A DNA stretch of 64,000 bases from a bacterium. GTDB taxonomy: Bacteria > Fidelibacterota > Fidelibacteria > Fidelibacterales > Fidelibacteraceae. The stretch spans positions 1,088,001 through 1,152,000 of the forward strand of contig OY781066.1 in assembly GCA_963676395.1 (NCBI GenBank), in the 5' to 3' direction. Position numbers: made by a program. Positions 18,001 to 45,000 of this stretch are shown here, piece after piece (within the stretch, counting starts at the first letter, position 1; each line of letters opens with the position of its first letter).

Positions 18001-21000
18001 ATTGAATCAGAAAATGAAGGTTTAAAAAGACTTATTGATTCAACCCAAATGTTAATTGACAACATTGAATATCGGGATATTATTGACAAACATGTATCAA
18101 AAGAGTCGTTACGAGAATTAATCATCGATTTGATTTTGAAATACAGAGAACTTCAAGAACTAAATCAAAAACAATTATGGGTCAACTCAATTATTTCGAA
18201 TATAAAAATAGAACTAAAGTCTAATACAGCCTATTCTTCGATTGACGAGATTGATTTTTATCAAATACAGTTTGATAAAATCAAACTATTAAAGTTTTCT
18301 GATATTGTTAGTAGCGTTAAGAAGGAAAGAATCATTAAGCAAAATGAAGTTAGGCGGTTTAAAATTGTAGCAAGCACAAAATTATTTAAAGGTGCTCAAG
18401 AACTTTTAGATAAAAGTGGAAAGAAGACTCGATTTAAAGATGCATTTGATAAATATGAAAATCCAATTGAATATTTAGATGAGTTAAAGCAAATTGAAGT
18501 ACTTCCTGAAACAGACTACTATAAGTATTTTATAGAAATAGAATACATGATTTTAAATGAACATGGAGTAGAGGTATCAGGAGGAGAACGTTCAGAATTT
18601 AATCTTTTAGAAAAAATTCAAAATGCTCATCACTTTGATATGTTGCTGATTGACGAGCCTGAATCCTCTTTTGATAATTTATTTCTTAAAAATGATGTTA
18701 ATGAACAGATTAAGGAAATTGCAAAATCAATGCCTGTGATAATTGTAACACACAACAATACTGTTGGGGCATCAATCCAACCAAATTATATACTTTATAC
18801 AAAAAGAGAGATTATAGATAAAAAAGCAGTTTATAAAATATTTTCTGGAAATCCATCTGACCCTGAATTAATGACAATTGATGGAGAAAAAATTGAGAAC
18901 TATGAAATCATGCTGAATTGTTTAGAGGCTGGGGATTCAGCTTATAATGAACGAGGAAAATCTTATGCAACACTTAAAGATTAATGATAACAAAGGGTTT
19001 TATCAAATAGAACCTAACCAATGGAAAGAGATTGATAAAATCGACAAGGAAGATTTGATGCTTTTATTGGATAAAGCAATAGAATCAGAGTTTGAAATGG
19101 ATAAATTTGAAGCTGATAAAATATCCAACAAAGCGCATTCTATAATTTATAGAAACCTTTATGAAAAATTCTCAGAATTGTCTGAAAACAAGAATAGATT
19201 TAAAGATGAAAGCGAATTATTGTACAAGAATGCTTTTGATAAATACAGCCAGATTGAGTCTAATGAAACTGATGAAGGATAAAACCAGCTGCTAACACGC
19301 AATATACGTAAGCTGGGTGATGTAGCCAATCTAAGCCTTTGTACATTTATTCAAAATTACAGTGGTTTGATAAGTATTTTCTCCGAAATCCCAGCCTCCG
19401 CATATTGCCATCCGTTATACACAATTCAAAAATTATTTTCCTAAGCAGTAAAATGATGATAGAGTTTCAAACTGTGGATAAATTCGATTTTTTCTTTTAT
19501 TATAGTGGGGGATAATATTATGAACAACGAACAAACAATTAAACTCGTAATTAGCAGGCTTATTGAAGAAGGCAAATTGGATGTAGTCGAAAAATCATTT
19601 TCAAAAAACTATGTCGCCCACGCAGGAGAAAAAGAGTACAAAGGACATGATTTTATTAAAAATTTTGCCGAACAGCTTCATTCTGCAATTCCCGATATTA
19701 AAGTCGTAAAAGTTGAATTCCTGAATAAATCAGGAAATATTATAACGTGGCAGAGAATATTAAGCGGGACACATAAAAAAAATATGATGAGAATTCCTGC
19801 GAGTGGCAAAAAAGTAAAATGGATTGAAATGGTGGTTAGCCGTTTTGAAAACGGAAAGATTTCTGAAGAATGGATTGTCTCAGAACTTATGGGGCAATTA
19901 TTATTAAAAGCTCCTACAAAGAAATAATAAAAATAACAAAGAATATTGGAAAAGGGACTTATCATATGGAATACTTGGGTTCTTGTTTATGCAAAGGAAT
20001 TAAATTTAAAGTTATCGGTGATTTTGAGAGTTTCTATTTATGCCATTGCAGATATTGCAGGAAAGACACCGGGTCTGCTCATGCGGCCAATTTATTTTCT
20101 ACAACAGCAAAAATAGAATGGATAAAAACGGAAACGGAAATTAAGATATTTCAACCGCATAAAAGCAATCATGTGAAGGCCTTTTGTACAAATTGTGGTT
20201 CCGCTCTACCTAATTTGCAAATGGATGGCAAACTTTTAGTCGTTCCGGCAGGATGTTTAGATACTGAATTAGAAAAAAGACCTAATGCACATATTTTCAT
20301 TTCAAATAAAGCAAGTTGGGATGAGTCGCTGGAAAAAATATATAAATTTGAACGTTTCCCAGAATAATAAATATAAGTACATCTGCTCCATTTTTTTGCA
20401 GACATCGAGAAACAGCTTAATCAAGATTAATCGATTAGTATTAAAACTTAATGCTTTTTATAAGTAATGGCAGTAAATGTGGTAAATATAAAGGTTTTTA
20501 GCCCGTCTAAAACATTATTAAATATCTTTTTTGTCCCGTTGGGGCTGTTATATTTTTGGGAACGATATACTCCCGGGTTTCGAAATGTTTGACCGCAATG
20601 CGACCCTTTATTATCTTCTAAGGCGATCCGTCAATCGTTCCTCCGCCATTGCGATCAGGTCTGCTGAAGTTTTTTGATGTCGCTTGATTAGATCTTTTTC
20701 ATCCAGCTCGCGGATCTCACCATTCACTACCACATGCTCACCGTTGATGATCACATGGTCGACCGGACTCATGGCAAAGTTAAAGACAATGGCGGCGGCG
20801 GGATCATGCAGTGCGCCGGAGTACTCCAGCTTATCCATGTCGATCAAATTAATGTCGGCACATTTACCGGCTTTGATCTGCCCGATGTCATCTCGTCCCA
20901 ATGCTTTGGCGCCTCCCACCGTTGCCATCCACAGGACTTCTTCGGTGTTAAGCCAATATTTGGGCTCACGGAGTCGGGAAAGCAACATGGCGTTACGGAC

Positions 21001-42000: not shown

Positions 42001-45000
42001 ATGTTTTACTTTTTTTGAAGTCGTTTTGCCGCCAGCATGACCGCTTCCACGATCTTGACATAGCCGGTACAACGGCACAAATTTCCATCCATAGCCTTTG
42101 TTGCTTCGTCCTCTGTAGGATGTGGATTTTCCTGCAAAAGCGCATAGGTCGCAAGTACAATACCCGGCGTACAAAAACCACACTGCACGGCGCCGCAATC
42201 CACAAAAGCTTCTTGGATCACATGCGGTTCATGCAGATCGCCGATGCCTTTTACGGTGAGCAATGTATCATCTTCGCAGACCGAGGCTGTGAACATCAGA
42301 CAAGAATTGACCGGCTTACCGTTAAGCAACACAATACAGGCACCGCACTCACCCTCTTTGCAACCGCTTTTCACTTCGGTGAAACCGGCTTTACGCAGAG
42401 TAAAAAGCAAATGCTCCTCAGGCGTAAACTCTATTTTTACGGCTTTACCGTTTACATTTAATATTGAATTCATTGAACACTCTCCAGGGCAGAAATAATC
42501 GCGCGTTGTGTTTCGATCTTTGCCTTAATGCCCATATACTCGGGATCCGTAATGCGCGCACCCACAATACTTACATTCACCCGTTCTTGCACCTTGGCAT
42601 CCACAATTTCGTCCTTCTTTTTCCCAAGAAGATAGCTCTCGAGCTCAGACAGATGAGTGATGCGCTCTTTGGTACCCACAATATAGACCTTGGCACGCTT
42701 AATGACATCCGTCTCTAGCTCCAGCAATACCGTGATAGTGAACAAAGGCATATCGTTCACTGTTTTCACATCGCAATAATGTGCCGAGTAATGGGGCGTA
42801 TCTTTCACACGAACCGCAGTGATAAGAGTTTGCTCCCGCAATGCCGCATCGTTAAGATAGTCCTCAACCGCAACGACACCCTCATGTTTTCCCGCCAGAA
42901 CGATTTCAGCGTCAAGCGCCAAAAGGGCGCCGATCAGATCGGACCATGACGGCACGAAGGCGATCGAGCCGCCGATCGTGATGCGATTTCTACAAGGAGT
43001 ATTGGCTGCGTTTTTTAATGTTTTTACAAGAATGTGCTGAGGAGAAAGAGATGACAATACGTTTACCACATCGGCATAGGTGCTCATCGCCCCGATCTCC
43101 AGCATATCTTTGTCTTTTTTTACATAGTCCAACCCAAGCTTGCGCAGACAGATAATACCATCTACATCTCGCAACTCACGACCGCTGAGATGCGTGCCGC
43201 CACCATGGAGAACCACGTTTTTTATCTCTAGCAGAGAACGCGCCTCAGCCAGAGATACCGGAAAGTACCACTTAATTTTATTCATAATTAGAAATTTCCG
43301 ACAATGAGGGGCAAATGTCAAGAAAATAATAGCCCCTACGGTGCAAGGCAAAGGGCAAAATTCAAAAGGCAAAGAAAGATCTATCCACAAATTGCTCTCC
43401 TTCAGCAAGCCTTCGAAAGGTCGGGTAGATAATAAATCTACATTATCTAATCAATATTTCTGAGATTCTTTTCCATTCTTCTCCAGAAAAAGAAGATTTT
43501 TCAGGTTTATATGAATTCCAGTCCGCACTTGATAAATCTTTAATTTTATCTCGCAATTCTTTTGCTGAATGCGGGCGCGTGCATAATTTTGTGTAAACGA
43601 TCTTTCAATCAAAGTTCCTCCTACGCTCTTCGAGCTTACATCTTCTCCGTCAGCCGACGGATTTGATGCACAGATCGGAAGGGCACGCAGATTTCTTTAC
43701 GTTTTTATCGGCAAAATCGATGCCCGACGACTTAAAATAATGCATCTATTTAATAAAATATTTTTGGGCGCATCGTGAACACTAAAGCTACGACCGGACA
43801 GGCGAAATCCACACAATCTTGTCCTTTTATAAAAGCTATGACTTTTAGCTATCCCATTACATAATAATATTAGTTTTAGAAATACAATAAAAGGACTTGA
43901 TGAATACGGGGGTTTAAGCTAGATTCACATTAATTGCTATACAAATAAGAATTGCAGAATTGCGTAGCTAAAAAAATGAACACTCGGATTCAAAATCGGG
44001 GGGACAAAATTTTTGGAGCATTCATGCAAAAATGCATGTACAAAACAGGCCTGATTTTAGTAAATTTAAACTCTGAAACCCAAAATTGGATGCTATTCTT
44101 ACACTTTGCCGTTAAACACTATTAAAACAAGGATCCGCTAATGAATAGATTATTTGGAAAAATGCGTTTGTCTCTTATAAATAAAGCCCAAAAGGGAAAT
44201 TATATTAAGTATGCAATTGGAGAAATTTTTCTTGTTGTAATTGGAATTCTTATTGCTCTTCAAATAAATAATTGGAACGAAGACAGAAAGGATAAAATAT
44301 ATAAACATAAAGTTTACGCTCAAATACAACAAGATTTACAAAGAGATACTCTGTATATCAGTGGCAGGATCGAATTTTATAAAGAAAAAAATGAACGGTT
44401 AGAAAAAATTATTAATAGAGAAATTCCAAAATCATACTACGATACACTTAATGCAAGCAATTATAAAAATTGCAGCAATTGTATTTGTGATTTAACAAGC
44501 AACTACTTTTTTCATTACTCTGATAAAGGATTTCAATTATTAAAATCATTGAATGAATCTCGCAATACCGAAAATGATTCGCTTTCGTATTTAATACTTG
44601 ATTTTTATAACGCTTACATACCCGCTTTGAAATTTGATAGTCAGATGCTAGCAGATATTATGAATGAAACAATTGATGAGTTTCAAAAATACGATTGGTA
44701 TGTTGATTGGGCTTATTATAACAGAGTTTACAACCAAGAATATCTGAAATACATTTTTGAAAGCGAAGAATATCGTAAAAAATGTGTCCGGTATTTAATC
44801 TATTCAAAATCGAACTACTTAAATAATTTGAAAATCTATAGAAGATATGCTGTAGAATTATTAAAGCTGCTGGATAAAGAATTATTTAACAAAAAGCTCT
44901 ACGAAAGAGAAAAACAGTTTATAGAAAAAATCAAAACAAAAGGAATTGATAAAGCCACTGACTATTATAAAACATTTAAAAAGAAGACAAAAAATGAAAA

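What a model noticed while it worked through the whole genome (the two positions that open the first line are those of the whole stretch)
20611..43390. Molybdenum-cofactor auxotroph: xanthine-dehydrogenase cluster without any Moco synthesis, with an ECF S-component-fold p [...]
This closed genome keeps a 19-gene purine-degradation cluster with two XDH-family molybdoenzymes, the chaperone XdhC and the Moco cytidylyltransferase MocA, yet has no moaA, moaC, moaE, moeA, molybdate-binding protein or selD. The whole family shows the same pattern, so these bacteria most likely take the cofactor from neighbours, as they do cell-wall fragments.
Evidence so far: Six-frame searches of this single-contig genome: no MoaC, MoeA, MoaE, MoaA C-domain, SBP_bac_11, and SelD below cut-off. 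Family: Moco-binding XDH domain in 27 of 33 genomes, MoaC in 0 of 33, MoeA in 0 of 33. g00966 best match E. coli MocA; g00965 and g00973 match PucD and XdhD over nearly their full length. Cluster order conserved across families.
(Added by a program. Inside this text positions count along the whole contig: contig position 1,088,001 is position 1 of the stretch shown here. "Call 12" and the like, gene names such as g00115 and contig names such as C1 are that model's own, and its searches are not shown. The text may have been shortened before it was handed on; [...] marks where a part breaks off. The agent that wrote the report below was given it as the finding of a first reader that could run no searches.)

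Follow-up and report, generated by a model that had tools for sequence, protein, structure and literature searches.

The report
Candidate importer for ready-made molybdenum cofactor
This bacterium keeps molybdenum enzymes but has no recognisable genes to make their cofactor, and a small vitamin-transporter-shaped membrane protein in the same gene cluster probably imports the finished cofactor from other microbes, a route not yet shown in bacteria.

Summary
Confirmed and extended. A 19-gene anaerobic purine-breakdown cluster in a Marinisomatota genome holds two xanthine-dehydrogenase-family enzymes, MocA and XdhC. The genome has no MoaA, MoaC, MoaE, MoeA, ModA or SelD; MoaC is in 0 of 33 family genomes. 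The 206-aa protein at 25501-26121 has an ECF S-component fold. In 251 phylum genomes its family occurs in 76 of 93 XDH genomes without MoaC, 3 of 69 with MoaC and 4 of 89 without the XDH marker domain (within-family permutation p=0.0013). MoeA is in 4 of 83 carriers. The same purine cluster lacks it in five MoaC-bearing genomes. Homologs sit by Moco enzymes or maturation genes in 46 of 52 distinct metagenome loci. A sister subfamily lies behind Moco riboswitches (17 of 48 phylum loci scanned, mostly one family). Best reading (0.75): an ECF-type importer of metal-loaded molybdopterin, finished inside by MocA and XdhC. Uptake is untested. Orphan molybdoenzymes are known in print; my searches found no described bacterial Moco importer. 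This scan noted similar ECF Moco-salvage systems on other DNA before.

The parts
42470..43285 (-). FAD subunit of XDH-family enzyme 2 (YgfM-like); longest ORF runs to 43408
   Evidence: PF00941; 35% to E. coli YgfM over part
42006..42473 (-). 2Fe-2S subunit of enzyme 2
   Evidence: PF01799, PF00111
39678..41999 (-). Mo-binding subunit of enzyme 2 (XdhD/XdhA-like; candidate urate-to-2,8-dioxopurine reductase)
   Evidence: MoCoBD_1/2; with the FeS gene 36% to E. coli XdhD over 5-955; Moco-contact motifs and C-terminal Glu present
38332..39681 (-). allantoinase/hydantoinase-like amidohydrolase (HyuA role inferred)
   Evidence: TIGR03178 354.6 bits, cut-off 357.85; 27% to HyuA
37056..38330 (-). 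SsnA-like amidohydrolase
   Evidence: best family SsnA, under cut-off; 32% to SsnA
33884..37075 (-). YgfK
   Evidence: TIGR03315 844.1 bits, cut-off 835.3
32669..33865 (-). YgeY
   Evidence: TIGR03526 485.1 bits, cut-off 321.5
31643..32653 (-). carbamoyltransferase (YgeW role inferred)
   Evidence: OTCace domains; 35% to YgeW
30221..31420 (-). PLP enzyme, threonine-synthase-like
   Evidence: PF00291, TIGR00260 over cut-off
29631..30224 (-). MocA-like Moco cytidylyltransferase
   Evidence: PF12804; TIGR03310 146.1 bits, under cut-off 186.45 but far above MobA models
27439..29532 (-). Mo-binding subunit of XDH-family enzyme 1
   Evidence: MoCoBD_1/2; nearest solved relative bovine XDH, motifs present; pN 0.11 against pS 0.73-0.77
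26979..27452 (-). 2Fe-2S subunit of enzyme 1
   Evidence: PF01799
26140..26985 (-). FAD subunit of enzyme 1; longest ORF runs to 27159
   Evidence: PF00941, PF03450
25501..26121 (-). ECF S-component-fold membrane protein, candidate Moco importer (206 aa)
   Evidence: model pLDDT 92.2; top 14 VIA-align rows are S-component chains, best 5edl Z 11.6, rmsd 3.4, 167 aligned; distribution, context and riboswitch data
24775..25500 (-). DUF364/DUF4213 protein (role open; Moco or metal handling inferred)
   Evidence: PF04016, PF13938; PDB 3l5o, 3npg
23984..24778 (-). XdhC-family Moco chaperone
   Evidence: PF02625, PF13478
23509..23982 (-). NTPase_1 P-loop protein, frequent companion of the S-component; fused to an EcfT-like domain in other lineages
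   Evidence: PF03266; within 3 kb of S in 28 of 52 distinct metagenome loci; fusions
22037..23497 (-). PLP enzyme, 486 aa (diaminopropionate lyase role possible, untested)
   Evidence: PF00291; conserved in the cluster across families
20611..22023 (-). 8-oxoguanine deaminase
   Evidence: NF006055 577.3 bits, cut-off 532

Best explanation
The organism is a molybdenum-cofactor auxotroph. Shown: the two XDH-family enzymes are intact and under purifying selection, no known pterin-synthesis, Mo-insertase or molybdate-binding gene is found, and the 206-aa protein has an S-component fold. Inferred: the S-component binds metal-loaded molybdopterin (Moco) released by other microbes and brings it in. 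Here it probably uses a shared ECF module encoded elsewhere in the genome (EcfT at contig 151405-152019, two EcfA-like ATPases at 2169990-2171461). MocA then adds CMP, XdhC holds and matures the cofactor and loads the two enzymes, which start a reductive purine/urate pathway. The cell keeps the nucleotide-adding step but not the insertase, so the imported form is most likely nucleotide-free Mo-molybdopterin. The NTPase_1 and DUF364 proteins are probably receiving or handling factors. How the cofactor crosses the outer membrane here is not known.
For: (1) Phylum sample, 251 genomes of at least 85% completeness: S family in 71 of 93 XDH+/MoaC- genomes with the first profile and 76 of 93 with the wider one, against 3 of 69 XDH+/MoaC+, 0 of 24 XDH-/MoaC+ and 4 of 65 XDH-/MoaC- (two weak partial hits at E 3e-4 and 1e-3 were dropped). 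Within-family permutation p=0.0013. In family f24 the 8 MoaC+ genomes lack S and both MoaC- genomes have it; in f14, 5 and 2 likewise. (2) MoeA in 4 of 83 carriers. (3) Of the four carriers without MoCoBD_1, two have DMSO-reductase-family domains, one has MoCoBD_2, one has S near a contig end. (4) The same purine cluster occurs without S in MoaC+ genomes G110, G143, G153, G207, G066. (5) Metagenome homologs: Moco enzyme, MocA/MobA or XdhC within 3 kb in 46 of 52 distinct loci, purine-pathway genes in 10 of 52, synthesis genes or modA in 0 of 80 loci. Distant homologs lie by molybdopterin oxidoreductases and MobA/MocA-type genes. (6) Rfam Moco/W riboswitch directly before S-family genes in 17 of 48 phylum loci scanned; 14 of the 17 genomes show neither MoaC nor MoeA. 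The E. coli riboswitch needs MoeA, so molybdate alone is not its signal (PMC2408646, passages). (7) Polar residues W17, E21, K72, P89, E96 are kept across the subfamilies.
Against: No binding or transport data. The riboswitch-led genes form a separate, long-branched subfamily; 15 of the 17 hits are from one family; none was found in the window, in 8 further phylum loci or in 21 metagenome loci. Moco riboswitches also lead molybdate transporters, and DUF364 is tied to modABC in Methanococcus (bioRxiv 2024.03.05.583561, passages). 17 XDH+ genomes lack MoaC, MoeA and S alike, and three genomes have both S and synthesis genes. No xanthine/uracil permease was found in G000 or four kin, so purine entry is unexplained. 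Foldseek alone was not significant (E 0.057). The EcfA-like proteins score far under the family cut-offs. Most genomes are incomplete bins and kin are not independent. Genome-wide absence of synthesis could not be tested outside this phylum. Free Moco is unstable (recalled).
Confidence: 0.75

Rival explanations
1. The S-component imports molybdate or tungstate, and the pterin is made and loaded by an unknown, non-homologous route (DUF364 or the NTPase as candidates).
For: No ModA-type protein in G000 or three kin. Moco riboswitches lead molybdate transporters, and DUF364 is co-fit with modABC in a methanogen. Metal-specific S-component chains are among the fold matches. Peng et al. 2018 offer new biosynthetic components as an explanation for orphan molybdoproteins.
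Against: It needs replacements for MoaA, MoaC, MoaE and MoeA together. A molybdate importer should be as useful to synthesisers, yet S is in 3 of 93 MoaC+ genomes. DUF364 is near S in only 7 of 52 distinct loci.
Confidence: 0.09
2. The protein handles Moco at the membrane or imports a related pterin (metal-free molybdopterin, a dinucleotide form, or the tungsten form) rather than plain Mo-molybdopterin.
For: Sequence cannot tell Mo from W or the exact form. The subfamilies differ at H29, P42 and N88. Rfam's model covers both Mo and W riboswitches.
Against: MoeA is missing in 79 of 83 carriers, so metal-free pterin could not be loaded by a known enzyme. MocA/MobA-type genes are kept beside S, which would be needless if dinucleotide forms were used as they come.
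Confidence: 0.08
3. The S-component imports purines or urate for the pathway in which it sits.
For: It lies inside a purine-breakdown operon, and no NCS2 permease was found in G000 or four kin.
Against: The same cluster lacks S in five MoaC+ genomes. Purine genes are near S in 10 of 52 loci against 46 of 52 for Moco genes. Two carriers have DMSO-reductase-family domains and no XDH domain. A purine importer has no reason to avoid MoaC.
Confidence: 0.04
4. The enzymes are Mo-independent, or relics, or the synthesis genes were lost in assembly.
For: Peng et al. 2018 raise these options for 305 bacteria with orphan molybdoproteins. G000 is rated 95.3% complete.
Against: Moco-contact motifs are intact; pN is far below pS in all six genes tested; MocA and XdhC are kept; MoaC is missing in 33 of 33 family genomes, two of them single-contig.
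Confidence: 0.04

Closest known systems
ECF S-components, nearest YkoE (PDB 5edl), then FolT, RibU, ThiT, BioY, PanT, BtuM
   Same: Size, six-helix core and fold; EcfT and EcfA-like genes in the genome; riboswitch control in part of the family.
   Different: No Pfam or NCBIfam family; 9-16% identity to the solved S chains in the top rows; proposed substrate is Moco; travels with an NTPase_1 protein, and in other lineages with an EcfT-like domain fused to that NTPase or as an S-T-NTPase fusion.
2,8-dioxopurine (reductive urate) pathway of E. coli and Clostridium sporogenes (bioRxiv 2025.04.24.650524 and 2025.05.19.654654, passages read)
   Same: XdhD-like enzyme, YgfK, SsnA-, HyuA-, YgeW-like and YgeY genes; carbamate kinase elsewhere in the genome, 50% to YqeA.
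   Different: No SelD, YqeC or full-length YqeB, no clear YgeX ortholog, no NCS2 permease and no Moco synthesis.
Orphan molybdoprotein-containing organisms (Peng et al. 2018, PMC6147048; passages and whole Discussion read)
   Same: XO-family and DMSO-reductase-family enzymes without a complete Moco pathway; 305 bacteria counted.
   Different: The Discussion offers pseudogenes, unsequenced genes, new biosynthetic parts or Mo-independent forms, not uptake, and names no transporter. Its supplementary organism list was not read.
Dietary Moco uptake in Caenorhabditis elegans (PMC9793310, abstract and opening read); Haemonchus contortus without Moco synthesis (PMC7619442, search listing only)
   Same: Finished cofactor taken from microbes.
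   Different: Animals; the abstract calls the capacity seemingly unique and states the prevailing view that cells must make Moco themselves.

Membership tests
ECF S-component | about 20 kDa integral membrane protein with six core helices | tested here: met
   206 aa, six predicted TM segments, helical model pLDDT 92.2
ECF S-component | S-component fold | tested here: met
   VIA-align over 48,161 chains: top 14 rows are S-component chains, best Z 11.6, rmsd 3.4, 167 aligned; first unrelated row Z 6.7. Foldseek's top row is the same entry but at E 0.057
ECF S-component | small-residue motif on helix 1 for docking to EcfT (AxxxA; recalled, from no call) | tested here: inconclusive
   G14-x3-G18-x3-A22 is conserved, but its role was not tested
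ECF S-component | EcfT partner encoded in the genome | tested here: met
   CbiQ hit over cut-off upstream of truA; 19 of 19 other family genomes tested. That it partners this S is not shown
ECF S-component | EcfA/EcfA' ATPases encoded in the genome | tested here: inconclusive
   adjacent ATPase pair; best family of the first is ECF_ATPase_1 at 109 bits, cut-off 315
ECF S-component | high-affinity substrate binding and transport | not testable with these tools
   needs purified protein and an uptake assay
Moco-synthesising organism | MoaA, MoaC, MoaE, MoeA | tested here: not met
   controls ring in 11 of 14
Xanthine oxidase family molybdoenzyme | Mo, FeS and FAD subunits with Moco-contact motifs and catalytic Glu | tested here: met
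   (motif roles recalled)
Xanthine oxidase family molybdoenzyme | bound Mo-pterin and activity | not testable with these tools
   needs native enzyme
2,8-dioxopurine pathway | XdhD/XdhAC, YgfK, SsnA, HyuA, YgeW, YgeY homologs | tested here: met
   YgfK and YgeY over cut-off, the others by homology at 27-36% identity
2,8-dioxopurine pathway | YgeX diaminopropionate ammonia-lyase | tested here: inconclusive
   only a 27% partial match; two PLP enzymes could stand in
2,8-dioxopurine pathway | selenium-cofactor trait (SelD, YqeB, YqeC) | tested here: not met
   so it works like that pathway at best, without selenium

The most novel reading that the evidence does not exclude
Moco is a shared, vitamin-like public good in anoxic communities. 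About a third of the sampled Marinisomatota, and many other anaerobes, have replaced the whole synthesis route and molybdate uptake with one S-component family that imports metal-loaded molybdopterin, and one branch runs on an ECF variant in which a THEP1-type NTPase fused to EcfT stands in for the ABC ATPases.
Probability: 0.55. Interest if true: 0.9.

Novelty: new variant of a known kind. Interest (0 to 1): 0.8.

Why it matters
It gives a concrete, testable answer to the open question of hundreds of bacteria that hold molybdoenzymes without Moco synthesis, and it challenges the view that cells must make Moco themselves. One small gene can be tested in E. coli moa or moe mutants. It would add Moco to the cofactors traded between microbes, change how nitrate, polysulfide and purine metabolism is read from such genomes, and suggest a growth supplement for uncultured anaerobes. 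A Moco-binding membrane protein would also be a tool for work on Moco movement and stability.

Tried and rejected
Complex prediction of S with the NTPase gave no answer (score 0.00); this is no evidence either way. A single-sequence model of a T-NTPase fusion was unusable (pLDDT 46.4); a profile comparison gave only moderate support that its membrane part is EcfT-like (hhalign 51% global, 31.5% local, control 0.5%). The ESM Atlas listed only unnamed clusters at the top. No homolog on plasmids. No Moco riboswitch in the window, at gathering or E-value level. The taxa and whole genomes behind the metagenome homologs could not be obtained, so the out-of-phylum evidence is neighbourhood only. The full maximum-likelihood tree did not finish; the FastTree tree uses 67 of 117 distinct rows, with two thirds of the metagenome rows left out, and long branches meet. 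Conservation of W17-G25 in the metagenome set is built in by the search pattern. The terminator/promoter scan at the 3' end showed nothing above chance. Rejected: the MoCF_biosynth hit as MoaB/MogA (CinA-like), the SelD-like hit as SelD (ThiL-like), ModC-like hits (generic ABC ATPases without ModA or ModB). The Borrelia XDH paper (PMC9993122, passages) says nothing on cofactor supply. Literature searches that showed no described bacterial Moco importer in their listings; the library lacks most subscription journals, and no supplementary files were read.
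Full report
Organism and cluster. The closest genome contigs relatives of the 206-aa protein that carry a taxon name are titled Candidatus Neomarinimicrobiota, so the window is from Marinisomatota (Fidelibacterota). The genome is one contig of 2,335,625 bases, 38% GC, rated 95.3% complete, with a single V-shaped GC skew and no terminal overlap. Nineteen minus-strand ORFs fill 20611-43408. In order of transcription: FAD, FeS and Mo subunits of an XdhD-like enzyme, an allantoinase/hydantoinase-like gene, ssnA-like, ygfK, ygeY, ygeW-like, a threonine-synthase-like PLP enzyme, mocA-like, Mo, FeS and FAD subunits of a second XDH-family enzyme, the 206-aa orphan, DUF364, xdhC, NTPase_1, a 486-aa PLP enzyme and 8-oxoguanine deaminase. 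This resembles the reductive 2,8-dioxopurine pathway (passages of two 2025 preprints), but without SelD, YqeC or full YqeB. The order is kept in families f1, f8 and f13.

No Moco synthesis. E. coli MoaA-E, MoeA, MoeB, ModA, ModB and ModE find nothing better than E 0.012 in six frames, while UvrB and LysS controls match strongly (the BioB control found nothing). HMMs for MoaC, MoeA_N, Mob_synth_C, MoaE and SBP_bac_11 are empty in G000. In the family, MoCoBD_1 is in 26 of 33 and MoaC in 0 of 33. The enzymes look alive: Moco-contact motifs and the C-terminal Glu are present, and pN is 0.10-0.27 against pS 0.66-0.80 for the six genes tested. A cysteine-desulfurase-like gene is present, so a sulfido form is possible.

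The orphan protein. It has no Pfam or NCBIfam family. Word search gave 65 homologs, and a profile gave 925 clusters at 50% identity, so it is a wide family. The AlphaFold model (pLDDT 92.2) matches S-components: the top 14 of 48,161 chains are S-component chains, best 5edl at Z 11.6, rmsd 3.4, 167 aligned. Foldseek ranks the same entry first but at E 0.057. W17, G18, E21, G25, K72 and P89 are invariant in 131 diverse rows. G000 has an EcfT gene upstream of truA, found in 19 of 19 other family genomes tested, an adjacent pair of divergent EcfA-like ATPases (under cut-off) and a BioY-like gene (by eye). A shared ECF module is therefore likely; its link to this S is inferred.

Distribution test. 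I searched the same 251 phylum genomes for the S family, MoaC and MoCoBD_1. With the first profile S was in 71 of 93 XDH+/MoaC-, 3 of 69 XDH+/MoaC+, 0 of 24 XDH-/MoaC+ and 4 of 65 XDH-/MoaC- genomes. The wider profile added five XDH+/MoaC- genomes; I dropped two weak partial hits, one of them in a MoaC+ genome. Kin are not independent, so I shuffled within families: 76 observed, 72.3 expected, p=0.0013. Genera g55 and g79 each hold MoaC+/S- and MoaC-/S+ members. MoeA is in 4 of 83 carriers. Of four carriers without MoCoBD_1, G034 and G088 have DMSO-reductase-family domains, G084 has MoCoBD_2, and G078 has S near a contig end. Against the pattern: G047, G111 and G179 have S and synthesis genes, and 17 XDH+ genomes have none of MoaC, MoeA or S.

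Neighbourhood test. In 80 metagenome loci (the best 80 of 319; 52 distinct at under 70% identity), a Moco enzyme, MocA/MobA or XdhC gene lies within 3 kb in 46 of 52, and in 23 of 25 with long flanks. Purine genes are near in 10 of 52, the NTPase in 28 and DUF364 in 7; no synthesis or modA gene is seen in any of the 80. In other Marinisomatota a sister subfamily is followed by an EcfT-like membrane domain fused to NTPase_1, or is fused to both in one protein of about 600 aa; neighbours include molybdopterin oxidoreductases, MobA/MocA-type genes and, in G047, a TonB receptor and DUF364. The same purine cluster occurs without S in five of the seven MoaC+ genomes whose XDH loci I fetched; the other two have a different XDH locus. 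So S follows the cofactor, not the purine substrate. One point for the purine rival remains: no NCS2 permease in G000 or four kin.

Regulation test. Rfam's Moco/W riboswitch lies directly before S-family genes in 17 of 48 phylum loci scanned: 15 of 17 S-T-NTPase fusion genes, plus G047 and G104; one more leads a distant S paralog and a MobA-like gene in G164. Fourteen of the 17 genomes show neither MoaC nor MoeA. In E. coli this RNA needs MoeA to repress, so its signal is Moco and not molybdate (PMC2408646, passages). A Moco sensor in a cell that cannot make Moco implies an outside source. Limits: these genes are a long-branched sister subfamily of the window's protein, mostly from one family, and no such RNA was found in the window or in 21 metagenome loci.

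Mechanism. Shown: intact enzymes, missing synthesis, S fold, the three associations. Inferred: S captures Mo-molybdopterin in the periplasm and flips it in through the ECF module; MocA makes the cytosine dinucleotide; XdhC matures and inserts it. Loss of MoeA with retention of the nucleotidyltransferase points to the metal-loaded, nucleotide-free form. The roles of the NTPase and DUF364 are open. DUF364 has been linked to pterin or metal chemistry (PMC2954201, search listing only) and to modABC in Methanococcus.

What is known. Peng et al. 2018 counted 305 bacteria with orphan molybdoproteins, listed Marinimicrobia as lacking the Mo trait, and did not propose uptake in their Discussion (supplement not read). 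Moco uptake is shown in C. elegans (abstract and opening). A regulon survey lists Mo/W transporters only under metal uptake (PMC3766115, passages). My searches listed no described bacterial Moco importer; most subscription journals are not covered. Earlier notes of this scan describe ECF-type Moco/W-pterin salvage candidates on other DNA, one with an S plus T-NTPase layout; I had reached my reading before seeing them, and they are unchecked AI notes.

Verdict. The cluster is a selenium-free variant of a known purine pathway. The notable part is an unnamed S-component family whose distribution, neighbours and regulation all point to import of ready-made Moco (0.75). It is a new variant of a known transporter kind with a substrate not yet shown for bacteria. 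Interest 0.8.

Noticed in passing
window 15857-20367: Low-GC island (about 0.30) with a PHP-domain/TrlF-like ATPase gene, an unknown 309-aa ORF and a GFA gene, between the cluster and htrA; in relatives L009-L012 an htrA-like ORF follows the cluster directly.
   Followed up: partly
window 44141-48000: Second low-GC stretch (0.29-0.30) upstream of the cluster with TPR, alpha/beta-hydrolase and HXXEE genes.
   Followed up: no
G000 contig 151405-152019, 2169990-2171461, 2086136-2086678: A split, highly divergent ECF module (ecfT beside truA; ecfA-like pair far away) and a BioY-like gene.
   Followed up: partly
L034:6418-7530, L029:5873-7600, L039:6836-8677: EcfT-like domain fused to a THEP1-type NTPase_1, and S-T-NTPase triple fusions: an unusual ECF layout.
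   Followed up: partly
L025:2015-3501: Second, more distant S paralog behind a Moco riboswitch and followed by a MobA-like gene in G164.
   Followed up: partly
G129, G261, G051, G095 and 13 more: XDH-family enzymes with neither MoaC, MoeA nor this S family: a second uptake route or missing sequence.
   Followed up: no
L163, L164, L172, L174, L177, L178: Other Marinisomatota carry yqeC and yqeB beside the same purine cluster, while this family has only xdhC and no selD: the selenium trait seems to differ between lineages.
   Followed up: partly
L141 (G127): Single-contig genome with moaA, moaC, moaB-like and moeA but no MoaE hit.
   Followed up: no
L089:279-3127, L090: S gene downstream of a Molydop_binding plus aminotransferase-V fusion and an EgtD-like methyltransferase.
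   Followed up: no
L070, L112, L115; L129: A small gene pair with a PIN domain lies between S and DUF364 in three loci; an insertion of about 6 kb separates them in G075.
   Followed up: no
window 832-2085; G000 contig 912170-913108: A further deaminase-like amidohydrolase outside the cluster, and a carbamate kinase (50% to YqeA) far from it.
   Followed up: no
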